Shown piece by piece: positions 53,581-63,895 of a DNA stretch of 64,000 bases (the first letter of the stretch is position 1; each line of letters begins with the position of its first letter). Under the pieces are notes generated by a model. That model did no database searches and was not told where the DNA came from. It saw nothing but the letters and a program-made list of their open reading frames with translations. The stretch is from an uncultured Acidobacteriota bacterium (lineage in GTDB: Bacteria > Acidobacteriota > Thermoanaerobaculia > Multivoradales > DATKCC01): NCBI GenBank assembly GCA_963741925.1, contig CAVUJU010000005.1, positions 2,369,447-2,433,446 of the forward strand, given 5' to 3'. The position numbers and the translations under genes were made by a program.

Positions 53581-56500
53581 GTGGCGAATCGAGATGCGGC
53601 GAAGCTCCGTCGCTGTTGGCTCTTCACACTCGCGCCGGTCCCGGTTCGCCCGGTCGCGGCGATTCTGGCCTCGACGCTCCTGGCCTCGACGCTCCTGGCC
53701 TCGACGCTCCTGGTGCCGGCCGCCTCCGGGCAGGCGATTCCTGGAAAGGCGTGTGGCCCCGAGGTGGCAGAGGGGACCACGTTCCACTTCGAGGAGGAGA
53801 CGAGCGCTCAGCTCCCTGCTGGTGTCTGCTTCGTCACCGCGTTCCACTGCGACCAGCCCGAGGAGGATGGAGGGCCGACCTACCAGCTGCTCGACGCCGG
53901 GTGCGACCCGACGGCCGGACCGTGCCGGGTCCAGGTTCGCGTGCCGCTGAAGTTCCCGGGCAACCAGGACAACATCCACGACGGCCCCCTCCACGTCGAG
54001 GAGGTGCGCTGGTACGTCCTGTCGGCGGCCCCGTCGTGCGAGGACTCGGTCCAGTGCGGCCAGGTCTCCACCTGTGGCAAGGAGGGCACCGGCACGGCGA
54101 CCATCAACACCGAGCGCGCGGTGTTCACCGCCACCCGCAGCTTGTCCTGCGCCGACGTCCAGCACACCGACCAGCCGCTGTCGCTCACCGCCTGGGCGTG
54201 CGTCACCACCTCGGGCTGCAAGCAGCGGCTCGACATCAACGGTCTCGACCTCGACGGGCCGGACGTGGCCGCACAGATCGGCTGCCCGGACCCGCCGAAG
54301 CAGAACTGCGGCGCGGGCGACGCGTCGAGCTGCCAGGTGTGCACGCCGGCCGGGGTCGGCCCGGGCTTCGGCCTTCCCGGGTACGGCGGGCCGGGGGACG
54401 GGGCGACCGGCCCGAACGCGACGTTGCGATATTCGTCAAAGGGCGCAGGCCACCCTGGCTACCCCGGCACGCCCTCTAGGAACGTCGCGTTGGGCCGCTA
54501 CTGGAGCCACGACTACGCCGAGCGGATCGTCGCCGTCGGGAGCCCGAACCCGGAGGATCACGTCTGGATGATCACGAAGTACGGGACCTTCCGCGAGTGG
54601 AGCGCTCCGGACGCGGGCACGGGCGTCTACGCGACCGTCTCGCCGTCCGACGAGTACCGCACCCTCACCTGGACCGGCTCGGGCTGGACCTTGACCGACC
54701 TCGACGGGACGGTCGAGGAGTTCGATGCCGCGGGGCTCTGGCGCTCGACCACCGACCGCAATCTCAACCAGAAGATCGCGACCTACACGGCGGGCCAGCT
54801 CACCTCGGTCGCCCTGCCGGACGGCCGCCGGGAGGACTTCACCTACTACCCGGCGGGCGATCCCGCCGAGGGCAAGCTCGCGTCGATCACCGAGTACGGC
54901 ACGGACGGCGTCACCCACTTGCCCGCGTGGGACTACAGGTGGACCGGCGACGACCTGACCGAGATCGACCGCCCCGACGGGACGGCGCTCCTCTTCGAGT
55001 ACGACGGGACGACCGGGTACCTTGCCAAAGTCAGGCTCCGCGAGAGGAACGGCACCGCGACCCGGGTGCTCCGGGCCTGGTCGTACACCCCGGACGGTAA
55101 GGTCTCCGAGACCTGGAAGGGCGGCGACACCCCGGCCGCAGGCACCGAGGACTGGAAGCTCTCCTACGACAGCTCGACCCAGACGACGGTGACCGATCCG
55201 CTGGGCAAGCCCATCGTCTACACCTACGAGCTCGACCCGGCGAGCCCGAACGTCCGGGTGACGCAGATCTCGGGAGATTGCCCCGTCTGCGGCCTCGCCC
55301 CGAACGTCCAGCTCGGCTACAGCGATCCCGCGAACCCTCTCCGCCCCACGGCCACCACCGACGGCCGCGGCATCACCACGGCGATGAGTTACGACACCCA
55401 CGGCCAGGTGACCTCCCGGACCGAGGCCATGGGCGAGCCCGAGGCCCGGACCACCGAGTGGGCCTACGACCCGGCGTTCCCGGCCCTCGCGACCTCGATG
55501 GACCAGCCCTCGGTCGCCGGCGGGGCCTCGCTGCGGACAACCGACTGGACCCGCGACGGCTCCGGCAACCCGACGGACCGGACGATCTCGGGCTCCGAAG
55601 CCGGCTCGGCCTTCACCTTGACGACGGCGAGCAGCTTCAACGCCGCCGGCCTCCCCCTGACGATCGACCCGCCCGGCTACACGACCACCGACCAGACGAG
55701 CTTCACCTACGACGCGACCGGCCTGATTCCCATGACCCGGACCGACCCGCTCGTCGGCACGACCACCTTCGGCCACGACGCCTTCAACCGCCGGACCTCG
55801 GTGACCGACCCGAACGGCCTCGAGACCACCACGGCCTACGACGAGCTCGACCGGGTGACCGAGGTCCGCCAGCTCGGGCCCGCGACGCCCACCGACGACC
55901 TGGTGACCGCCTACGAGTACACGAGCTTCGGGGATCTCTTCCGGACCACCCTGCCCGCCGGCAACGTCGTCGAGTACGCCTACGACCCCGCCGGCCGGTT
56001 GACCTCCGTCGAGCGGCGGCCCGACGCCACCACCCACGGCGAGCGGGTCGTCTACACCCTGGACGCCGCCGGCAACCGGACCCGGGAGGAGCGCCAGCGG
56101 TGGGACGCCGGGAGCTCCACCTGGGTGCCCGTCTCGGCCACCGCCTACGACTACCAGAACCGCTGCCAGGTCGACCAGGTCCGCCAGGGCGCGGACCAGC
56201 CCGAGGAGGCGACGACCGCCTTCGAATACGACTGCGACGGCAACCTGACCTCCGTCTGGGACCCTGACCACGACCGGGCGACCGACCCGCCGACCACCAC
56301 CTATGGCTACGACCTCTTGAACCGCCTGACGAGCGTCTCTCAAGCCTGGCAGCCTCCCGGCGGGACCCCGGGCACGGCCGTCACCACGTACTCCTATGAC
56401 GTCCAGGACCACCTGACAGGCGTCACCGACGCCGAGGGGAACCCGACCACCTACGTCGACTCGGACCGGGACCTCCTGACCCAGGAGGACTCCCTCGTCT

Positions 56501-58701
56501 CGGGGACGACGACCCATCGCTACAACGAGCACGGCGAGGAGGACCGCTCGACCGACGCCCGGGGGATCGTCGTCGCCCGCACGATCGACGCGCTCGACCG
56601 GGTGACGAACGTCGACTACCCCGACGACACCCTGGACACGACCTACCTCTACGACACGGCGCCCGGCTCCTGCGCCGCTCCGGGCTCGCCCGTCGGCCGC
56701 CTGGCCTCCATCACCCGGAACGGCGAGACGCTCGACTTCTGCCACGACCACTTCGGGCGGATGGTGAAGGACGGCGAGCTCGGCTACACCTGGGACGCCA
56801 ACGGCAACCGCACCGGGATCGTCTATCCTGGAGGGGTGAGCGCGGCCTACGGCTTCGACTTCGCCGACCGGGAGACGAGCCTCTCGGTGACGACCCCCGC
56901 GGGGGGCGTCACGCCCACCGGCGTCGTCACGGCCGCCGCCTACCTGCCCTCGGGACCGCTCTCGAGCCTCGCCCTCGGCAACGCCACCACCGAGACCCGG
57001 GCCTTCGACGGCCGCTACGTCCCCTCCGGGATCACCCTCTCGGGCCTGGCCGGAGGCGTCCCCGGCCACACCTGGACGTATGCCACCGACCGGGTGGGCA
57101 ACGTCACCGAGATCGTCGAGACCCCGGAGTGCTCCGGCGGTGGCTCGACCCTCGTCCTCGAGAACCAGACCGTCACGACGGATGAGACCTTCACCTCCTG
57201 CGCCGACCTCCAGGCGGGAAACGGCTTCACCGTCCAGAGCCCCGGGAACGTGACCTTCCAGGCGCAGGGCAAGGTCGTCCTCACCAGCGGCTTCTCGGTG
57301 GGCAACGGCGCCTCCTTCGCCGCCGGCTCCGGGTCGCTGCCAACCTTCTCCGATCGGACCTTCAGCTACCAAGCGCCGCAATACTTCCTCACCTCCGCCG
57401 CCCTCACCCGGGCCGCCGGCTCCTGGGGCACCCGCGACTGGTCGTACGACAAGATCGGCAATCGCCTCAGCGAGAGCCGGGACAGCGGAGCCAGCTCCGA
57501 CGGCTACGTCTACACGACGAACGCCGCCTCCGGCGATACCCCCGTCCTCGACCTCGTGAACCTCACCGTCAGCGGCACCCGCGACTACACCTGGGACGCC
57601 GCCGGCAACCTCGACTCCGTGGCCCCCGGCGGGAACCTCGTCGACTTCACCTTCGACGACGCGAGCCGCTTGTCTGCCGCCGGCCACCCGGCCTCGGGAG
57701 CGAGCGCCGCCTTCCTCTACGACGGCCGAGGCTTCCTCCGGAGCGCCACTCAGACCGCCGGCGGCACCGCCTCCGTCACCCCCCTCTACGACTCCGCCGG
57801 CCTCCTCCACGCCCTCCGCCGCCAGCCCAGCCCCACGGACCCGCTCGACACGACCTACGTCTTCTACCTCGCCGACCGCCCCGTCGCCCAGCTCCAAATC
57901 GACGGCACCGGCACCGAGACCTGGACCTACCTGACCACCGACCACCTCGGCACTCCCCTCATCGCCACCGACCAGAGCGGCGCGATCACCTGGGAAGGCG
58001 GCTTCGAACCCTTCGGTACCGACTACCAGGCGGGGATGACGGGGGTGGGGGCCTCGGAGAACGGGATCGACCTGAGGCTCCCCGGCCAGTGGGTCGACGA
58101 CACCTGGGCCGATGCCACCTCCGGAGCTGGGATCCACTACAACGTCTGGCGGTTCCTCGAAACACAGACTGGACGCTATACCCGGCCCGATCCCAAGCGA
58201 CTCCGGAGCGGAGAGTCGAACCTCTATCTCTACGCTCGGAACAACCCGCTGCTCAGCAGCGACCCCCTCGGGCTCTACACAGTCCTCGGTCCAGGCGCTC
58301 ACAGGGTGCGGGAGGCTTTCGATCTCCTCCGTCCGCTCGTCCTTCCCGGGAACAAGCAGCGCGACCCATGCGATCCGTGCCAGAAGATCTTCCGGAAGCT
58401 CGGGCTGGACCCTCGAATGCTCGACGAGAACGGTGCCGCCCCCATCATCTACACCGCTGCAGCTCCTCTCGATCCATCCCAAGCCTACGGCACCTACAAG
58501 TGCTCCGATTGGATCTGGATCGATCGCCGGCTCACCGAGGGCTCCGACCCGAAAAGACTCCGGTGCCTGGCTGCGAAACTCGCTCATGAGCTCGCCCACT
58601 TCCTGGCGGGTCATTGCCTTACAGAGGGGCCGGAAGGGCAAGGTGCTGAGAAGGCTTGCTTCGGGCGTCTCGTCGAAGGGACCAGCGAATGCGGGTTCTA
58701 G
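53581..58701 (+). CDS. rhs: Sec-secreted Rhs/YD-repeat polymorphic toxin whose C-terminal tip carries an HExxH motif
   Basis: signal peptide; Cys-rich N-domain; dozens of YD repeats; RHS core ending GIHYNVWRFLETQTGRYTRPDP...DPLGL; C-terminal tip with HELAHF. Confidence 0.9.
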   Translation: MANRDAAKLRRCWLFTLAPVPVRPVAAILASTLLASTLLASTLLVPAASGQAIPGKACGPEVAEGTTFHFEEETSAQLPAGVCFVTAFHCDQPEEDGGPTYQLLDAGCDPTAGPCRVQVRVPLKFPGNQDNIHDGPLHVEEVRWYVLSAAPSCEDSVQCGQVSTCGKEGTGTATINTERAVFTATRSLSCADVQHTDQPLSLTAWACVTTSGCKQRLDINGLDLDGPDVAAQIGCPDPPKQNCGAGDASSCQVCTPAGVGPGFGLPGYGGPGDGATGPNATLRYSSKGAGHPGYPGTPSRNVALGRYWSHDYAERIVAVGSPNPEDHVWMITKYGTFREWSAPDAGTGVYATVSPSDEYRTLTWTGSGWTLTDLDGTVEEFDAAGLWRSTTDRNLNQKIATYTAGQLTSVALPDGRREDFTYYPAGDPAEGKLASITEYGTDGVTHLPAWDYRWTGDDLTEIDRPDGTALLFEYDGTTGYLAKVRLRERNGTATRVLRAWSYTPDGKVSETWKGGDTPAAGTEDWKLSYDSSTQTTVTDPLGKPIVYTYELDPASPNVRVTQISGDCPVCGLAPNVQLGYSDPANPLRPTATTDGRGITTAMSYDTHGQVTSRTEAMGEPEARTTEWAYDPAFPALATSMDQPSVAGGASLRTTDWTRDGSGNPTDRTISGSEAGSAFTLTTASSFNAAGLPLTIDPPGYTTTDQTSFTYDATGLIPMTRTDPLVGTTTFGHDAFNRRTSVTDPNGLETTTAYDELDRVTEVRQLGPATPTDDLVTAYEYTSFGDLFRTTLPAGNVVEYAYDPAGRLTSVERRPDATTHGERVVYTLDAAGNRTREERQRWDAGSSTWVPVSATAYDYQNRCQVDQVRQGADQPEEATTAFEYDCDGNLTSVWDPDHDRATDPPTTTYGYDLLNRLTSVSQAWQPPGGTPGTAVTTYSYDVQDHLTGVTDAEGNPTTYVDSDRDLLTQEDSLVSGTTTHRYNEHGEEDRSTDARGIVVARTIDALDRVTNVDYPDDTLDTTYLYDTAPGSCAAPGSPVGRLASITRNGETLDFCHDHFGRMVKDGELGYTWDANGNRTGIVYPGGVSAAYGFDFADRETSLSVTTPAGGVTPTGVVTAAAYLPSGPLSSLALGNATTETRAFDGRYVPSGITLSGLAGGVPGHTWTYATDRVGNVTEIVETPECSGGGSTLVLENQTVTTDETFTSCADLQAGNGFTVQSPGNVTFQAQGKVVLTSGFSVGNGASFAAGSGSLPTFSDRTFSYQAPQYFLTSAALTRAAGSWGTRDWSYDKIGNRLSESRDSGASSDGYVYTTNAASGDTPVLDLVNLTVSGTRDYTWDAAGNLDSVAPGGNLVDFTFDDASRLSAAGHPASGASAAFLYDGRGFLRSATQTAGGTASVTPLYDSAGLLHALRRQPSPTDPLDTTYVFYLADRPVAQLQIDGTGTETWTYLTTDHLGTPLIATDQSGAITWEGGFEPFGTDYQAGMTGVGASENGIDLRLPGQWVDDTWADATSGAGIHYNVWRFLETQTGRYTRPDPKRLRSGESNLYLYARNNPLLSSDPLGLYTVLGPGAHRVREAFDLLRPLVLPGNKQRDPCDPCQKIFRKLGLDPRMLDENGAAPIIYTAAAPLDPSQAYGTYKCSDWIWIDRRLTEGSDPKRLRCLAAKLAHELAHFLAGHCLTEGPEGQGAEKACFGRLVEGTSECGF

Positions 58702-59648
58702 TCCTTTTGGCGTGCGTCTTGCTGCCCACCCGGCCGGCTTGCGCCGAAGACACCCAGAGCCTACGGCTCGAGCTCATCCTCCCCTCGACAACGGTGCCCC
58801 TCGGCGAGCCCTTCATCATCCGAGCCGTCCTGCTCAACGAGTCAACCGCCCCGGTGCGGGTCGCCCCTGTCTTCTTCCTCTCGCATGACAACCTCGAGTT
58901 GCAGCTAACCGATGCCGAAGGCGACAGCGTTGATGCGCCGAGCGGTGCGATCGAGGTCTGTGGCCGCGTGAACCGCGACTGGCTGATTCTTCTCGGCGCC
59001 CGCGAGCTCATCGGCGCGGACTTCAAGATCTCTCCCACACTCCCCGATAGCCTGAATTACATCTACGGGCTGCGGGCGGGCTGCTACACCTTCTCTGCCA
59101 TATTCCATCTCCACGACTTCGCGGACTGCCTCAATGCCCAGGCTGTACCCACTCCAGCGCCGGTACACGGTCCTGTCGCCTCCGAGCCGCAGAAGCTTTG
59201 CTTCGGCCCCCCCCTGCCAGAGCGGGTCACGGAGTTCCGAAACAAGCTCAGCTCGGGTCAATTGGACCAAGTCATCGAAGGACTCCTCTATTTCTCCAAC
59301 GTCGCTGATCCACGGGCAAGTGCCGAGATCCGCTCGCTCCTTGGTGCCGCCGAAGGCTGGCAATCTCGCTTCGTGGACCAGTTCCACGCCCTGACAGCCT
59401 TGCGCCGTCAGCGAGACCCCGCCAATGCACCCTACTTTCGAGAGGCGCTGCATGGTCGCTTCTCCGCACTCGCCGCCAAGGCTCTCCAGGAGGTCCGGGT
59501 TTCTCCCTCCACTTCCGCCAATCCGAACCGCTACCGTGACCGGGGCACGGAGCCCAACGCCAGTAGGAATTCATGCAGCTACGACTACCATGCAGGATTT
59601 CGGAGCGCTCTTGGACCTACCTCTGCGCCGATCACCTGGAGGCGCTAG
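58689..59648 (+). CDS. secreted candidate immunity protein for the Rhs toxin tip
   Basis: ATG lies inside the rhs stop region; signal peptide; paralogue of 63104-63895. Confidence 0.55.
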   Translation: MRVLVLLACVLLPTRPACAEDTQSLRLELILPSTTVPLGEPFIIRAVLLNESTAPVRVAPVFFLSHDNLELQLTDAEGDSVDAPSGAIEVCGRVNRDWLILLGARELIGADFKISPTLPDSLNYIYGLRAGCYTFSAIFHLHDFADCLNAQAVPTPAPVHGPVASEPQKLCFGPPLPERVTEFRNKLSSGQLDQVIEGLLYFSNVADPRASAEIRSLLGAAEGWQSRFVDQFHALTALRRQRDPANAPYFREALHGRFSALAAKALQEVRVSPSTSANPNRYRDRGTEPNASRNSCSYDYHAGFRSALGPTSAPITWRR

Positions 59649-59666
59649 CCGTGGCCGCCAACCGGG

Positions 59667-60401
59667 ATGGCGGCATCACCTGGCAAGGGTAGCTTCGAAC
59701 CCTTCGGCACCGACTACCAGGCCGGCACCGGCAACGGAGCGAGCGACAATGGCATCTCCCTCCGCCTCCCCGGCCAGTGGGAAGACGGCACCTGGGCCGA
59801 CGCGACCTCCGGAGCCGGGATCTACCAGAACACCTGGCGGTTCCTCGAAACGCAGACTGGACGTTATACCCGGCCCGATCCCTTGGGGCTTGACGGTGGC
59901 ATCAACCCCTACCGCTACGCCTTCTCGAATCCCCTTCGCCTTTCCGATCCAACCGGCCGGCATGTGACATGGGTCGACCCTCAGCTTGACCACCTTTTCA
60001 ACTGCGCTATCAAAGGCTCTTCCGAGTTCCGCCATCGTTATCTCGACTGGTTCATCAGGGATTCTCACGACTGGGAGATTCACGTTCACCCTCATCCGGT
60101 GGGTGACCCAGCGCCTCTCCCGGGCTACTGTTCTGGCTCAAGCTGCTGGGTTCGTCCCGGACCTTTCCACGCCGGTCAAGTTTTCATCATTCCTACCGGT
60201 GACTGCCTCACGGATACCAAGTCCCTGATGCACGAGCTCCTGGAGATCTTTGCGAATCGGGCGCTCGGCCTCTCGACAAGCGCTCTGGACGCCGTTGCAG
60301 TCAACGATCCCAACGATCCGTACCAGTCGCCGGCTCACCACTACGCGAAGGCGCACGACAGTGACCTCGCCAAGGAGATTTGCTGCCGGTGCCAACCATA
60401 A
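59667..60401 (+). CDS. orphan Rhs C-terminal fragment (core end + alternative toxin tip)
   Basis: FEPFGTDYQAG...TWRFLETQTGRYTRPDPLGLDG, then an unrelated tip (..MHELLEIF..). Confidence 0.6.
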   Translation: MAASPGKGSFEPFGTDYQAGTGNGASDNGISLRLPGQWEDGTWADATSGAGIYQNTWRFLETQTGRYTRPDPLGLDGGINPYRYAFSNPLRLSDPTGRHVTWVDPQLDHLFNCAIKGSSEFRHRYLDWFIRDSHDWEIHVHPHPVGDPAPLPGYCSGSSCWVRPGPFHAGQVFIIPTGDCLTDTKSLMHELLEIFANRALGLSTSALDAVAVNDPNDPYQSPAHHYAKAHDSDLAKEICCRCQP

Positions 60402-61234
60402 TCGGTAGTAGCTCTGGTCTTTCTTGGGCCTGGCTACTAGAGTTCACGTACTTGTTACCGGCTTCGCTGGCGGCCATGGTGGTCGTCGTCTCTTGTGGAC
60501 TAGCCATCACTCGCAAAGAGCCCTTCTCGGGCTCCGATTATCCGATCTTCGTCAGAGATCTAGCCGTCCTGCTGCCACCTGTCGTAGCCGCACAGACCTT
60601 CCTGGCCTCACTCGATAGATCTACCAGCCTAGACCCGTCGGGCCCCCAGGAGATTCTGCTGGCAAAAGCTTTCCTGGCCGCTGCAGTGACGGCCTACGTC
60701 TCTTGTCTCCTGCTCGCGTTCGCCTATCTTCTCGCCAGGCGGCTCGCCGCCTCCGCGGTGCTTGGAGCGACAAGAAGACGTTCGCTTCTGTCTCTCGGTG
60801 GGATCGTGTTAATCCCGACTGGCACCGCCGCCTTTCAGTTCGAGTGCTTCGGCGTCAAGCTCTTCCCTGGCGACGCCTTTGTCTCACGACAACTCGGCTA
60901 CCCGACGACCCTATTGCGGGTGTCGATCTCGCTCTCGGACGTTCTCGTAGCGGCCCTTCTCCTCGGCTCCGCACTCGTAGCTTTCGCCCTTTGGGGCCTC
61001 GTCTCTCACGGTTCTCGCCCGGCGCTAATCGCCCGTCCTACGACGTACGCTTTCGCGGCTATAGGGGCCCTAGCTGCTCTCGACGTTTACTCCTCCTTTT
61101 TCGCTCACTTCGACTCAGCCCACCCTACTCGTCTTGCTCCTGCTCTCGCGCTTCTATCGACTGTGATTCTAGTTACAGCTTATTATCTGCTCGTGGTTCG
61201 AGTACTGGTGCAGGCTCGCGCTCAGACAAAGTGA
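60380..61234 (+). CDS. multi-pass membrane protein, candidate immunity for orphan tip 1
   Basis: 7-8 TM helices; lower GC than surrounding DNA. Confidence 0.55.
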   Translation: MLPVPTIIGSSSGLSWAWLLEFTYLLPASLAAMVVVVSCGLAITRKEPFSGSDYPIFVRDLAVLLPPVVAAQTFLASLDRSTSLDPSGPQEILLAKAFLAAAVTAYVSCLLLAFAYLLARRLAASAVLGATRRRSLLSLGGIVLIPTGTAAFQFECFGVKLFPGDAFVSRQLGYPTTLLRVSISLSDVLVAALLLGSALVAFALWGLVSHGSRPALIARPTTYAFAAIGALAALDVYSSFFAHFDSAHPTRLAPALALLSTVILVTAYYLLVVRVLVQARAQTK

Positions 61235-61259
61235 AGCCAACGGCCACGGGGCACAGATA

Positions 61260-63116
61260 CGCCAGGTTTCAAGGTGACGTGACCGCCACCTACGGCCTCG
61301 ACTACGCCGACCGGGAGGTAAGCCTCTCGGTCAACACCCCGGCAGGCGGGATGACGCCCCACTCCGTCGTCTCCGGCGCCGCCTACCTGCCCTCGGGACC
61401 GCTTTCGAGCCTGGTCTTCGGCAACGGTGCCACCGAGGACCGCGCCTTCGATCAACGCTACTCCCCCTCTGGCATCACCTTCTCCGGCCTCGCCGCCGGA
61501 GTGCCCGGCCACACCTGGACCTACACCGTCTCGATCCGGTGGGCAACGTGACCGAGATCTTGGAGACCCCGGAGTGCACCGGCGGCGGCTCGGGGCTGGT
61601 CCTCGAGAACCAGACTGTCACGGCGGACAAGACCTTCACCTCCTGCGCGGATCTCCAAGCGGGCAACAACTTCGCCGTCGAGAGCCCCGGGAACGTGACC
61701 TTCCAGGCGCAGGGCAAGGTCGTCCTGACCAGCGGCTTCTCGGTGGGCTCCGGAGCCTCCTTCGCCGCCGGCTCCGGGTCGCTGCCAACCTTCTCCGATC
61801 GGACCTTCAGCTACCAAGCGCCGCAATACTTCCTCACCTCCGCCGCCCTCACCCGGGCCGCCGGCTCCTGGGGCACCCGCGACTGGTCGTACGACAAGAT
61901 CGGCAATCGCCTCAGCGAGAGCCGGGACAGCGGAGCCAGCTCCGACGGCTACGTCTACACGACGAACGCCGCCTCCGGCGACACCCCCGTCCTCGACCTC
62001 GTGAACCTCGCCGTCAGCGGAACCCGCGACTACACCTGGGACGCCGCCGGCAACCTCGACTCCGTGGCCCCCGGCGGGAACCTCGTCGACTTCACCTTCG
62101 ACGACGCGAGCCGCTTGTCTGCCGCCGATCACCCGGCCTCGGGAGCGAGCGCCGCATTCCTCGACGACGGCCGAGGCTTCCTCCGCAGCGCCACCCAGAC
62201 CGCCGGCGGCACCGCCTCCGTCACCCCGCTCTACGACTCCTCCGGCCTCCTCCACGCCCTCCGCCGAAAGCCCAGCCCCACGGACCCGCTCGACACGACC
62301 TACGTCTTCTACCTCGTCGGCCGCCCCGTCGCCCAGCTCCAAATCGACGGCACCGGCACCGAGACGTGGACCTACTTGACGACCGATCACCTGGGAACGC
62401 CGCTCGTTGCCACGAACCAGACCGCGGCCATCACTTGGGAAGGCGGGTTCCGCCCGTTCGGCACCGACTACCAGGCCGGGCTCCCCACTGGCGCTAGCGA
62501 GAACGGGATCGACCTCCGGTTGCCTGGAGAGTGGGACGACACCGCCTGGACCGATGCGACGTCGGGCGCGAGCGTTCACTACAACGTCTGGCGGTGGCTC
62601 GAGCCAGAGACGGGGCGATACACTCGACCCGATCCACTTAGATCTCAGAGACGGGGAACGGATTACCTCTATGCTCAAGACAATCCGATACTCAACACAG
62701 ATGCCACTGGTCGTTATCGAGTCATAGGCGGCGGAGCAGAAAATGTCCACCAGGCATTCCAGGACTTATTGCAGCGGATTCACACAAATTGCGATTGCTA
62801 CCAATTCTTCCATGATCTGGGCCTAGTCCCTTCAATGCTCGACCCTAATGGCGCGCCTCCTTACATCGCCACAGGAGGCTCCCCCCTCTCCCGCAACCAA
62901 ACGCTCTACGGCGCTTATAACTGCCGCACCGACTATATCTTTATCGACGCAAGGCTAGTCCAGGATTCACGTCACCGGCGATGCCTGGAGGCCAAGCTCG
63001 CCCATGAAGTGGCGCACTTTCTTGCACGCTCCTGCGAAGAAGGGCCCGAAGGCACGGGAGCCGAGAAGGCCTGTCTGGGGCGTGTCTACGAGGGCAAAGA
63101 CGATTGCGGATTCTAA
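61260..63116 (+). pseudogene. orphan Rhs 3' fragment (~620 codons homologous to 56820-58701) with an internal frame break ~61540; intact tip with HEVAHF
   Basis: near-identical stretches to the main rhs (SFSYQAPQYFLTSAALTRAAGSWGTRDWSYDKIGNRLSESRDSG...); 2-nt indel relative to the main copy. Confidence 0.7.
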
Positions 63117-63895
63117 CTCTCGCCCTCCTGCTGCTCCAACTCGGTTCCGCCAAGTCAGTCGACCTACGCTTGGTTCTTGCCGGCCCCAAGGAAGCGGTTC
63201 CACTCGGCGAGCCGTTCGCTTACCAAGTCACGCTTGTGAACAAGACTGGGGCTCGAGTGCGAGTAGTCCCGATCTTCTTTCACTCCGAGGATTACTTGGA
63301 CCTCCGACTAAAGAGCTCCACGAACCCATTACCCGAAGTCGCCCAGTTTGCAGCTGATTTCGAAAGCGGTCTCAACCGTGAAGACTTCGTCCTTCTAGGA
63401 GACCGCAACTTTATCGGACAGGAGTTCTTCGTGAGGCCCGAAAATCCCTTCGAATACATCTATGGCCTTCGGGAGGGAACTTACTCGGCGCAAGCCGTTC
63501 TGCACCTTCACTCGTTTTCGAGCAAATTTCAGTGGGATGACCTTCCGGCGGTCGAAGCGACCTTGAGCTCCAACGAAATCACCCTAACCTTCGGCCCACC
63601 CCGACCGACTACCATCGACTACCGCAAGCGAGAACTGAAGTTACACGATGAAACGAAGCAAAGTCAGGCTCTGGCATATTTTTCTAGTGTTCGCGCACCC
63701 GGAGTTGCAGCTGCCGTTCGCGAGATTCTTGGTCAACCTGCCGACTGGCTAAACCGTTTCCACGACCCAGCGGGCGCCCTCCTCGCCCTCCGCCGAAACT
63801 CGGAGGCCGCAAATTTTCCCTATATCAACGCCGCACTGACGTCGAGGTTTCGCGATCTGGCCCGGGAGGCACTCAAGGCGACACCGCCTCGCTAG
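63104..63895 (+). CDS. secreted candidate immunity protein 2 (paralogue of 58689-59648)
   Basis: signal peptide; shared ...PLGEPF...V.VVP.FF.S.D.L.L.L... pattern. Confidence 0.55.
   Translation: MRILTLALLLLQLGSAKSVDLRLVLAGPKEAVPLGEPFAYQVTLVNKTGARVRVVPIFFHSEDYLDLRLKSSTNPLPEVAQFAADFESGLNREDFVLLGDRNFIGQEFFVRPENPFEYIYGLREGTYSAQAVLHLHSFSSKFQWDDLPAVEATLSSNEITLTFGPPRPTTIDYRKRELKLHDETKQSQALAYFSSVRAPGVAAAVREILGQPADWLNRFHDPAGALLALRRNSEAANFPYINAALTSRFRDLAREALKATPPR

What the first reader, a model, noticed from the sequence alone, without database searches (positions are those of the whole stretch)
59667..61234. Orphan Rhs tip 1 with a different toxin domain and a polytopic membrane immunity gene, in a lower-GC island
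Homology to the main rhs restarts at FEPFGTDYQAG and runs through the core end (RYTRPDPLGLDG), then switches to an unrelated ~150-aa C-terminal domain. A 284-aa membrane protein follows, overlapping by 22 nt. The region is visibly AT-richer than the surrounding DNA, consistent with horizontally acquired displaced-tip cassettes used for toxin switching by recombination.
Basis: partly seen in the sequence, partly recalled or inferred. Interest (0 to 1): 0.55.

Follow-up and report, generated by a model that had tools for sequence, protein, structure and literature searches.

The report
Orphan Rhs toxin tip with membrane immunity
This is a leftover ("orphan") 3' end of an Rhs toxin gene carrying a rare, uncatalogued toxin domain and its own 7-helix membrane immunity gene. 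It is an ordinary kind of bacterial-warfare cassette, but it bears a clear footprint of recent exchange between genomes.

Summary
ORF 59667-60401 (244 aa) matches the main Rhs core end (72% identity, aa 7-100). It then switches to an unrelated 146-aa tip. A polytopic membrane ORF follows. The segment is 60% GC against 73.0 ± 2.4% upstream (z = -5.3).

Refinements:
- DNA homology starts at 59612 in another frame. A 1-nt insertion at 59684 restores the frame.
- The ATG has no Shine-Dalgarno sequence and is ACG in a related Acidobacteriota MAG.
- The membrane gene probably starts at GTG 60389, after AAGGAG (13-nt overlap).

The tip family is very rare: 6 hits among 1.84 billion representative proteins, and none in Pfam, NCBIfam, PHROGs, PADLOC or PDB sequences. 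Every member with upstream sequence sits on an Rhs core end. Relatives are followed by multi-TM proteins, or by lipoproteins in a sister subfamily.

The AlphaFold model (pLDDT 82) weakly resembles minimal zincins (SprT/IrrE-like). The conserved motif is HExxE plus a later His, not HExxH.

Block 59692-61581 is 99.7% identical to the related MAG, while the flanks are 81-94%. This indicates recent recombinational exchange. Switching onto this genome's main rhs looks inefficient (77% over 271 nt, longest exact run 18 nt).

Verdict: a real orphan rhs-CT/immunity module and a new member of a known kind.

The parts
59612..59684 (+). Out-of-frame remnant of the Rhs core (reads WTYLCADHLEALAVAANRDGGITW in frame 2). 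It ends at a 1-nt insertion (C at 59684) that shifts into the frame of the present ORF. This is the true 5' limit of homology to the main rhs.
   Evidence: blastn 59612-59882 vs 57922-58194, 76.8%. Alignment A1. Sequence. The C is absent in L001.
59667..60401 (+). Orphan rhs-CT ORF, 244 aa. The ATG has no Shine-Dalgarno-like sequence upstream and is ACG in the related MAG L001, which uses a different upstream start (270 aa).
59685..59960 (+). In-frame Rhs core end (Rhs_assc_core). It includes the autoproteolysis-type motif DPLGL (59877-59891), 18 residues, then DPTGR (59946-59960).
   Evidence: 72% identity to main Rhs aa 1472-1567. TIGR03696 52 bits vs cutoff 32.5. Motif coordinates.
59961..60398 (+). 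146-aa toxin tip of a rare, uncatalogued family. Conserved features: Cys113 (CAIK), SSCW (60138-60149), Cys180, HELLE (60231-60245), SPAHHYA (60327-60347) and C-terminal CCRC (60381-60392). Predicted alpha+beta minimal-zincin-like fold.
   Evidence: 6 hits among 1.84e9 representatives. 4 hits among 5.8e9. Alignment A3 invariants. AF2 pLDDT 82, pTM 0.81. Foldseek. dN/dS 0.06 vs L008.
60372..60377 (+). Shine-Dalgarno AAGGAG inside the toxin's last codons, 11 nt before GTG 60389. It implies translational coupling of the immunity gene.
60389..61234 (+). Putative immunity gene: a 281-aa protein with 7 predicted TM helices (the longest ORF starts at TTG 60380, 284 aa). Predicted N-out/C-in topology by the positive-inside rule. 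Predicted outward-facing segments are more conserved than inward loops.
   Evidence: Hydropathy. 99% identical P0001. 54% identical homologue after the same tip in L008. Loop conservation 63% vs 42%. No Pfam or NCBIfam family.
59692..61581 (+). 1,890-bp block that is nearly identical (5 differences, 99.7%) to Acidobacteriota MAG contig CAWIQD010000005.1 (L001/L007). It is flanked by DNA only 81-94% identical. It covers the orphan core end, tip, immunity gene and the first ~315 nt of orphan 2.
53581..58701 (+). Context: main rhs (1706 aa) with a Sec-type signal peptide, YD repeats and a cysteine-rich HExxH tip of an unrelated family.
58656..59648 (+). Context: signal-peptide ORF after the main tip (presumed cognate immunity; paralogue at 63104-63895). 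Its 3' end runs into the orphan-1 core remnant.
61267..63116 (+). Context: orphan 2. It has a longer core fragment, split by a frameshift near 61540, and a tip of the same family as the main tip. It shares a 227-nt perfect match with the main rhs.

Best explanation
The segment is a displaced ('orphan') rhs-CT/rhsI module. It is the last ~350 nt of an Rhs core, a 146-aa toxin tip, and a translationally coupled 7-TM immunity gene. It sits second in an array downstream of a Sec-signal-bearing main rhs in a ~72% GC Acidobacteriota genome.

Shown:
- It is collinear with the 3' end of a long rhs ORF plus immunity gene elsewhere (L008).
- It is 5'-truncated and frame-scrambled at the junction.
- Its tip is intact and has evolved under strong purifying selection.
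- The tip-plus-immunity block was recently exchanged between diverged genomes.

Inferred:
- (a) As it stands, the 244-aa product has no shell and no export signal. It cannot be delivered, so it acts as a stored toxin allele. The immunity gene, with its own strong SD, is the part in current use and protects against neighbours that deploy this tip.
- (b) The tip is a small zincin-like metallohydrolase. Its metal site would be H189/E193 (HExxE) plus H224, with E190 as the catalytic base. It may be stabilised by disulfides or by a Cys cluster.
- (c) It acts at the periplasmic face of the inner membrane or in the periplasm, because every cognate partner in the family is a polytopic membrane protein or a lipoprotein. 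The 7-TM protein would neutralise it by binding through its conserved outward-facing loops.

Confidence is about 0.9 for the module identity, about 0.45 for the zincin-like envelope-acting mechanism, and about 0.6 for 'stored allele plus working immunity'. The single figure given (0.75) weights the module identity most heavily.
For: Rhs core-end homology and TIGR03696.

DPxGL-x18-DPxG motif.

Collinearity of 59612-61225 with L008 3665-5283 (71.7%). There the tip ends an ORF with at least 1,000 aa of Rhs core and is followed by a 54%-identical 7-TM protein.

dN/dS is 0.06 for the tip, 0.23 for the core end and 0.34 for the immunity gene.

All family members with upstream sequence carry Rhs core ends.

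Downstream partners: multi-TM ORFs in L001, L003, L004/L005, L006, L008, L010 and L014. A conserved lipoprotein in subfamily B (L001, L002, L012). TM ORFs in L013.

SD AAGGAG lies before GTG 60389. There is none before ATG 59667, and that ATG is not conserved.

The 99.7% block has sharp borders.

The cassette has lower GC than the adjacent core in four other contexts (L001, L003, L008, L010) and in L006 relative to the next rhs fragment.

AF2 model: pLDDT 82, pTM 0.81, with HExxE on helix 87-105 and the later His on the next helix.

Foldseek BFVD hits: E 5e-3 to 5e-2, TM 0.5-0.6. Named hits are SprT-like, IrrE-like and metallopeptidase.

The PDB top list is dominated by zincins, though none is significant.

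Rhs-linked minimal zincin tips (Tox-MPTase1-5) are an established class (PMC3482391).

TM or lipoprotein immunity is used in the literature as an indicator of periplasmic or membrane action (PMC12419801).
Against: - No structural match reaches significance against solved structures (best E 0.48, TM below 0.45).
- The canonical HExxH motif is absent.
- No coordinates were available to check that H189, E193 and H224 converge.
- No immunity or toxicity test exists for any family member.
- The 7-TM proteins of different tip lineages are not detectably homologous to the window's protein. Only window/L008 and L003/L004/L010 group together.
- The tip was not seen on a verified complete Rhs. L008's ORF has an unrelated primase-like 5' part.
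- Two MAGs from related metagenome projects sharing a near-identical block could in principle reflect assembly or binning artefacts.
Confidence: 0.75

Rival explanations
1. Fossil plus orphan immunity. The toxin fragment is a decaying pseudogene with no future use, and only the membrane gene is maintained, as defence against neighbours' toxins.
For: 5' truncation, a frame-shifting 1-nt insertion, indels at the junction, a non-conserved start codon and no SD. Homology to the main rhs is only 76.8% over ~271 nt, with an 18-nt longest exact run. Orphan 2 next door already carries a frameshift.
Against: The tip ORF is intact in both genomes and keeps all family-invariant residues. dN/dS is 0.06 against L008. 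The recently exchanged block includes the toxin part, not just the immunity gene. With 99.7% identity there has been too little time for decay to show, so the two readings are hard to separate.
Confidence: 0.25
2. The tip is not a peptidase or metallohydrolase. It could be a Cys-rich membrane- or lipid-targeting domain, or another enzyme, that only superficially resembles a zincin.
For: HExxE instead of HExxH. Foldseek vs PDB is not significant. No Pfam, NCBIfam, PHROGs or PDB-sequence hit. Polytopic immunity proteins are typical of membrane- or lipid-directed toxins. L002's PLA2-type tip also has a TM partner.
Against: The invariant H-E-x-x-E lies on a predicted helix, with a conserved His on the next helix. 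Named BFVD matches are consistently minimal zincins, with probability up to 1.0. The domain itself is not hydrophobic.
Confidence: 0.3
3. The 244-aa ORF is an independently expressed, self-sufficient small toxin, and the membrane protein is its exporter or partner rather than an immunity protein.
For: An intact ORF with an ATG lies 18 nt after the upstream stop. One relative is fused to its TM partner in a single ORF in two samples (L004/L005).
Against: There is no signal peptide, no SD and no conserved start. The first ~7 codons are a frameshift product. The same tip is found at the end of long Rhs cores (L008, L006). The gene order toxin then small overlapping ORF is the standard toxin-immunity arrangement. 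The L004 fusion lacks the conserved CCxC end, so it looks like a truncation.
Confidence: 0.05
4. The low GC and the near-identical block are artefacts (MAG chimerism or cross-sample assembly) rather than horizontal exchange.
For: The related contigs come from one metagenome series (ERZ250394xx-ERZ250395xx). No mobility gene or tRNA lies in the window.
Against: The same low-GC-tip, high-GC-core mosaic recurs in independent JGI contigs: L003, L008 and L010, and more weakly L006. Block borders fall inside Rhs-homologous DNA, as expected for homologous recombination. The window's protein sits on a 3.08-Mb contig and L001's on a 288-kb contig.
Confidence: 0.05

Closest known systems
rhs-CT(orphan)/rhsI(orphan) module of Salmonella Typhimurium LT2 (STM0292; Koskiniemi et al. 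2014, PMC3967940)
   Same: A 5'-truncated rhs 3' fragment with its own tip and immunity gene lies directly downstream of the main rhs/rhsI pair. It shares core-end homology with the main gene.
   Different: Salmonella shares 522 bp at 95% with the main gene and switches experimentally. Here the homology is ~271 nt at 77% with an 18-nt longest exact run. The junction is frame-scrambled. The host Rhs has a Sec signal rather than a T6SS-type context. The tip and immunity families are unrelated.
Tox-MPTase1-5, small zincin-like tips of RHS polymorphic toxins (Zhang et al. 2012, PMC3482391)
   Same: Small alpha+beta domains of roughly 150 aa at the C-terminus of RHS proteins. They were described as distantly related to Wss1-like minimal metallopeptidases, and the predicted fold here also matches SprT/Wss1/IrrE-like proteins.
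   Different: All listed Tox-MPTases have HExxH. This family has HExxE plus a downstream His and a C-terminal CCxC. No Pfam Tox-MPTase model is hit. No immunity family is listed for the Tox-MPTases in that table, whereas here the partner is a 7-TM protein.
VgrG2b C-terminal metallopeptidase effector of Pseudomonas aeruginosa (Wood et al. 2019, PMC6899460)
   Same: An antibacterial metallopeptidase-type effector that acts in the target's periplasm (paper title and abstract). It is countered by an envelope-located immunity protein (my own recollection, not checked here).
   Different: It is delivered as a VgrG fusion by the T6SS and has a canonical zincin motif. No sequence similarity was detected, and its immunity protein is not a 7-TM protein.
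Lipid/periplasm-directed polymorphic toxins with TM or lipoprotein immunity (Lipocone toxins, Burroughs et al. 2025, PMC12419801)
   Same: The logic is the same: immunity proteins that are all TM proteins or lipoproteins imply action outside the cytoplasm.
   Different: The Lipocone fold is described as a helical domain. The tip here is predicted to be alpha+beta and zincin-like, and no homology was found.

Membership tests
Rhs / YD-repeat polymorphic toxin, C-terminal core | RHS repeat-associated core domain (TIGR03696) immediately before the tip | tested here: met
   52 bits vs cutoff 32.5, aa 41-97. 72% identity to the main Rhs core end.
Rhs / YD-repeat polymorphic toxin, C-terminal core | DPxGL-x(~18)-DPxG[L] aspartyl autoproteolysis motif at the core/tip boundary | tested here: met
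   DPLGL (aa 71-75), 18 residues, DPTGR (aa 94-98). The last position is R rather than L. Cleavage itself is not testable here.
Rhs / YD-repeat polymorphic toxin, complete protein | YD-repeat shell and an N-terminal export or delivery region | tested here: not met
   No RHS_repeat hit in the 244-aa ORF. Homology to the main rhs starts only at 59612. By this test it is a fragment, i.e. an orphan.
Orphan rhs-CT/rhsI module | 5'-truncated rhs fragment downstream of a main rhs/immunity pair, with a different tip | tested here: met
Orphan rhs-CT/rhsI module | Tip followed by a cognate immunity gene that co-varies with the tip | tested here: met
   Gene order is conserved in L001, L003, L004/L005, L006, L008, L010 and L014. 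The pair is collinear and co-transferred. Protection itself was not tested.
Orphan rhs-CT/rhsI module | Enough homology with the main rhs to recombine and be expressed as a chimera | tested here: inconclusive
   76.8% over 271-276 nt, longest exact run 18 nt, against 522 bp at 95% in the experimental model. An inter-genome exchange footprint exists, but no main/orphan-1 chimera was observed.
Zincin metallopeptidases (incl. Tox-MPTase1-5, SprT/Wss1, IrrE) | HExxH zinc-binding/catalytic motif on the active-site helix | tested here: not met
   The family-invariant motif is HExxE (H96, E97, E100 of alignment A3).
Zincin metallopeptidases (incl. Tox-MPTase1-5, SprT/Wss1, IrrE) | Zincin fold: beta-sheet plus active-site helix plus a following helix carrying the third ligand | tested here: inconclusive
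   The order of secondary-structure elements in the AF2 model fits. BFVD: E 5e-3 to 5e-2, TM 0.5-0.6, to SprT/IrrE-like models. PDB: best E 0.48.
Zincin metallopeptidases (incl. Tox-MPTase1-5, SprT/Wss1, IrrE) | Sequence match to a curated family model | tested here: not met
   No hit in Pfam, NCBIfam, PHROGs, PADLOC or PDB sequences, either for the single sequence or for all 10 family members.
Nucleic-acid deaminase toxins (H[AV]E ... PCxxC) | HxE and PCxxC zinc motifs on a deaminase fold | tested here: not met
   The motif is H-E adjacent (HExxE), not HxE. The CCxC lies at the extreme C-terminus without the preceding Pro. No deaminase appears among the fold or family hits.
Horizontally acquired genomic island | Deviant base composition relative to the host | tested here: met
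   60.1% vs 73.0 ± 2.4%, z = -5.3. GC3 0.63-0.68 vs 0.94.
Horizontally acquired genomic island | Mobility genes, a tRNA or att-type borders | tested here: not met
   No tRNA in the window. The only promoter-like site, at 61157-61186, is within chance expectation. A DDE transposase is seen only at the end of the array in L001 and L002. Movement appears to use Rhs-core homology instead.

The most novel reading that the evidence does not exclude
The tip and its sister subfamily define an undescribed, very rare family of envelope-acting Rhs toxins. They would have a minimal-zincin scaffold with a re-wired metal site (HExxE plus a distal His, with conserved Cys pairs and a C-terminal CCxC). They would be neutralised from within the membrane by 7-TM proteins, or by lipoproteins in the sister subfamily. 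The target would be a periplasmic or membrane-embedded substrate not yet known for Rhs toxins.
Probability: 0.35. Interest if true: 0.5.

Novelty: new member of a known kind. Interest (0 to 1): 0.35.

Why it matters
Orphan Rhs modules are well known, so the architecture is not news. Three things add modest value.

(1) The tip belongs to a family with about a dozen detectable members among billions of proteins. It is absent from every curated library searched. It has a non-canonical HExxE motif and membrane-embedded partners, which makes it a candidate new antibacterial activity aimed at the cell envelope.

(2) A 1.9-kb block is 99.7% identical inside loci that are otherwise 81-94% identical, in genomes whose flanking genes are barely related. 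This is a clean natural example of toxin/immunity cassette exchange through Rhs-core homology in uncultured soil Acidobacteriota.

(3) It shows that an orphan can be too diverged from its resident main rhs to switch easily, yet still circulate between genomes.

Tried and rejected
- Family libraries. Pfam, NCBIfam, PADLOC and PHROGs scans of the tip, the membrane protein and all ten family members gave nothing beyond the Rhs core.
- PDB sequence searches with the single sequence and with the profile gave nothing.
- The word-indexed search of 5.8e9 proteins with the tip alone found nothing. Only the exhaustive HMMER search and the profile search found relatives.
- Remote homology between this tip and the main/orphan-2 HExxH tip was rejected (hhalign probability 0.15%).
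- The deaminase reading (HxE...CxxC) was rejected on motif geometry and fold hits.
- A papain-like Cys/His reading was set aside. The invariant His lies in a predicted helix next to an invariant Glu.
- The search for related loci with the 10-sequence alignment failed because no stretch was conserved enough. The single-protein genome scan returned only the L001 MAG.
- P0014/L015, clustered with the orphan protein, shares only Rhs core and lacks the tip.
- Promoter and terminator scans gave counts within chance expectation.
Full report
**1. What is at the coordinates**

The + strand from 53.5 kb to the window end holds an Rhs array:
- a main rhs (53581-58701, 1706 aa; RHS_repeat and RHS Pfam hits);
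- a signal-peptide ORF (58656-59648);
- the finding (ORF 59667-60401, 244 aa, then ORF 60380-61234, 284 aa);
- a second, longer orphan (about 61267-63116, split by a frameshift);
- a paralogue of the signal-peptide ORF (63104-63895).

Residues 7-100 of the 244-aa ORF are 72% identical to main Rhs residues 1472-1567 (E 5e-38). They are 58% identical to orphan 2. They reach 52 bits on TIGR03696 Rhs_assc_core, whose cutoff is 32.5. The boundary motif DPLGL-x18-DPTGR is present. Beyond residue 98 nothing matches the main tip. This holds by BLASTP and by profile-profile comparison.

**2. Refinements to the anatomy**

At the DNA level, homology to the main rhs begins at 59612, not at the ATG (76.8% over 271-276 nt). 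From 59612 to 59683 the ancestral Rhs frame reads WTYLCADHLEALAVAANRDGGITW. That is a different frame from the present ORF. A single inserted C at 59684 brings the downstream FEPFGTDYQAG segment into the frame of ATG 59667. So the first ~7 codons of the ORF are a frameshift by-product.

No Shine-Dalgarno-like sequence precedes the ATG. In the related contig L001 that ATG is ACG, the C insertion is absent, and a different upstream ATG gives a 270-aa ORF.

The membrane gene differs in this respect. It has a perfect AAGGAG at 60372-60377. The GTG at 60389 matches the start called in L001 (281 aa) and the GTG start of the L008 homologue. The likely overlap is therefore 13 nt rather than 22 nt.

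Hydropathy gives seven TM segments. The positive-inside rule suggests an N-out/C-in topology. Predicted outward-facing segments are 63% identical between the window and L008 homologues. Predicted inward-facing loops are 42% identical.

**3. Composition**

The finding is 60.1% GC. Same-sized windows over the first 58 kb give 73.0 ± 2.4% (minimum 67.2%), so z = -5.3. GC3 falls from 0.94 in the main core to 0.68 in the tip and 0.63 in the membrane gene.

The low GC is not one island. It is a mosaic. Rhs core fragments are 66-71% GC, and each tip-plus-immunity pair is 57-63% GC. The same contrast appears around relatives of this cassette:
- L008: core 69%, tip and partner 59-60%.
- L010: 66% against 53%.
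- L006: 53% against 46-48%.
- L003: the next rhs fragment 67.5% against 60%.
- L001: the same mosaic as the window.

**4. Relatives and context**

The word-indexed search with the tip found nothing. An exhaustive HMMER search of 1.84 billion representatives found six proteins at E up to 0.001. A profile search of 5.8 billion found four. A metagenome scan added L008, L010 and L011.

Every member that has sequence upstream of the tip carries an Rhs core end of the type ...GGFEPFG...LRLPGQW...RYT..DP...DPLGL. P0004 has YD repeats. L008 has about 1,000 aa of Rhs core. Its 5' part is primase-like, so it is not a verified complete Rhs.

Two subfamilies exist.

*Subfamily A* is the window's. It includes P0002-P0007 and L008.
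- Every member with downstream sequence available is followed by a multi-TM ORF of 245-290 aa: L003, L006, L008 and L010.
- L014's partner is cut by the contig end.
- In L004/L005 the tip is fused to such a domain.
- The window and L008 partners are 54% identical.
- L003, L004 and L010 form a second homologous group.
- The two groups are not detectably related.

*Subfamily B* comprises L001 orphan 2 and P0008-P0010. It is 26% identical to the window tip (pairwise E 3e-6).
- It is followed by a conserved lipoprotein in L001, L002 and L012.
- It is followed by TM ORFs in L013.

No family in Pfam, NCBIfam, PADLOC or PHROGs, and no PDB sequence, matches any member.

**5. Evidence on function of the tip**

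Alignment A3 (10 sequences) has these invariant positions, in tip numbering: C20, S66, G77, C87, H96, E97 and E100. H131 is nearly invariant, as is a C-terminal CCxC or CxxCC. In ORF numbering these are C113, C180, H189-E190-x-x-E193 and H224.

AlphaFold2 on this alignment gives mean pLDDT 82.1 and pTM 0.81. The model has two N-terminal helices and a small sheet. A long helix (87-105) carries HExxE, and a final helix starts at the conserved His.

Foldseek against the PDB gives nothing significant (best E 0.48). Even so, the list is dominated by zincins: MMPs, 4l7a, M61, PprI and lethal factor. Against BFVD the best matches have E 5e-3 to 5e-2, TM 0.5-0.6 and probability up to 1.0. The named ones are SprT-like, IrrE-like and 'metallopeptidase'.

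Small Wss1-like zincin tips on RHS proteins (Tox-MPTase1-5) are an established class, and all of them have HExxH (PMC3482391). I therefore read the tip as a zincin-like metallohydrolase with a re-wired ligand set. Confidence is moderate (about 0.45). It is not a member of any described Tox-MPTase family.

All partners are polytopic membrane proteins or lipoproteins, and the tip has six or seven conserved cysteines. I infer action in the periplasm or at the outer face of the inner membrane. The literature uses the same reasoning for other toxins with TM or lipoprotein immunity (PMC12419801).

Against L008, dN/dS is 0.06 for the tip, 0.23 for the core end and 0.34 for the membrane protein. The tip has therefore been a functional protein for most of its history.

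**6. Evidence on mobility**

The closest genome is an uncultured Acidobacteriota MAG, CAWIQD010000005.1 (L001/L007). It shares DNA with the window only from inside the rhs gene (54569) to inside orphan 2 (62613). The upstream genes and the first kb of rhs are not homologous, and a neighbouring TPR protein is 36% identical.

Within the shared 8 kb, identity is as follows:

| Segment | Identity |
|---|---|
| Main core (200-nt windows) | 67-92% |
| Main tip | 93.8% |
| Main immunity ORF | 91.6% |
| 59692-61581 | 99.7% (5 differences in 1,890 bp) |
| Beyond 61581 | 84% |

The borders of the 99.7% block are sharp. The left border is exactly where the in-frame Rhs core end begins. The right border lies ~315 nt into the orphan-2 core fragment, so the orphan-2 frameshift is inside the block and shared. 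This is the footprint expected of a recent recombinational replacement using Rhs-core homology on both sides.

No tRNA or mobility gene lies in the window. A DDE transposase closes the array in L001 and L002.

**7. Can it switch onto the resident main rhs?**

Probably only poorly. Main/orphan-1 homology is 76.8% over ~271 nt, with an 18-nt longest perfect match. Main/orphan-2 has about 1.35 kb of homology with a 227-nt perfect match. The Salmonella orphan that switches experimentally shares 522 bp at 95% (PMC3967940).

So in this genome the module is best seen as a stored toxin allele plus a working immunity gene. It circulates between genomes, rather than being a ready intragenomic switch.

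**8. Verdict**

This is a real orphan rhs-CT/immunity module. The architecture is a known kind. The toxin and immunity families are new members of it, uncatalogued and very rare. Interest is moderate to low (0.35). The most novel reading still open is a new envelope-acting zincin-variant toxin family with intramembrane immunity (probability about 0.35).

Noticed in passing
window 61267-63116 (frameshift near 61540); L001 10891-12773: Orphan 2 is split into two ORFs (60703-61551 and 61539-63116) by a frameshift in its core fragment. The same split exists in L001, because it lies inside the 99.7% identical block.
   Followed up: partly
window 57310-57536 and 61755-61981: The main rhs and orphan 2 share a 227-nt perfect match inside ~1.35 kb of homology at roughly 83-85% identity (the figure measured for the equivalent window-vs-L001 cross-matches). 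This suggests recent gene conversion or a ready recombination substrate, unlike orphan 1.
   Followed up: partly
window 53581-54600: The main Rhs starts with a Sec-type signal peptide containing an STLLA x3 repeat. It has no PAAR/VgrG-type domain, and the first 340 aa have no Pfam hit. A homologous signal-peptide N-terminus occurs in L015 7427-9037. The delivery route of these Acidobacteriota Rhs proteins is unclear.
   Followed up: partly
window 58282-58701, 62691-63116; 58656-59648, 63104-63895: The main tip and orphan-2 tip are one cysteine-rich HExxH family (KLAHE[LV]AHFLA...GAEKAC...CGF). Each is followed by a paralogous signal-peptide protein (330 and 263 aa). No Pfam or NCBIfam family matches either.
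   Followed up: partly
window 54569-62613 vs L001 4162-12228: The window and the Acidobacteriota MAG share DNA only inside the rhs array. The rhs 5' kb and the neighbouring genes are unrelated or only distantly related (a TPR protein is 36% identical). Identity along the shared core varies from 67% to 92%, so the rhs gene itself is mosaic.
   Followed up: partly
L001 12300-15760; L002 8001-10088: Related arrays carry further orphans with other tips. These include a subfamily-B relative of the window's tip with a lipoprotein partner, a PLA2-type main tip with a ~4-TM partner, and another HExxH tip. The arrays end at a DDE transposase.
   Followed up: partly
L004 1227-2345 and L005 546-1664: A subfamily-A tip lacking the C-terminal CCxC is fused in one ORF to a multi-TM domain. 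The ORF is identical in two metagenome samples. It may be a truncation that joins toxin and immunity.
   Followed up: no
L013 2-1676; L004 2697-4164: A different zincin-type Rhs tip (FHE[RM]LHRCG) is also followed by a 7-TM ORF in L013 and by a contig-end-truncated 82-aa ORF of unknown topology in L004. This hints that polytopic partners for small metallopeptidase-like tips recur in these soil bacteria.
   Followed up: no
L008 40-1500: The long Rhs ORF carrying the same tip has a primase/CHC2-zinc-finger-like region at its 5' end, joined at about main-Rhs residue 715. This suggests insertion into, or capture by, a mobile element, or a chimeric contig.
   Followed up: no
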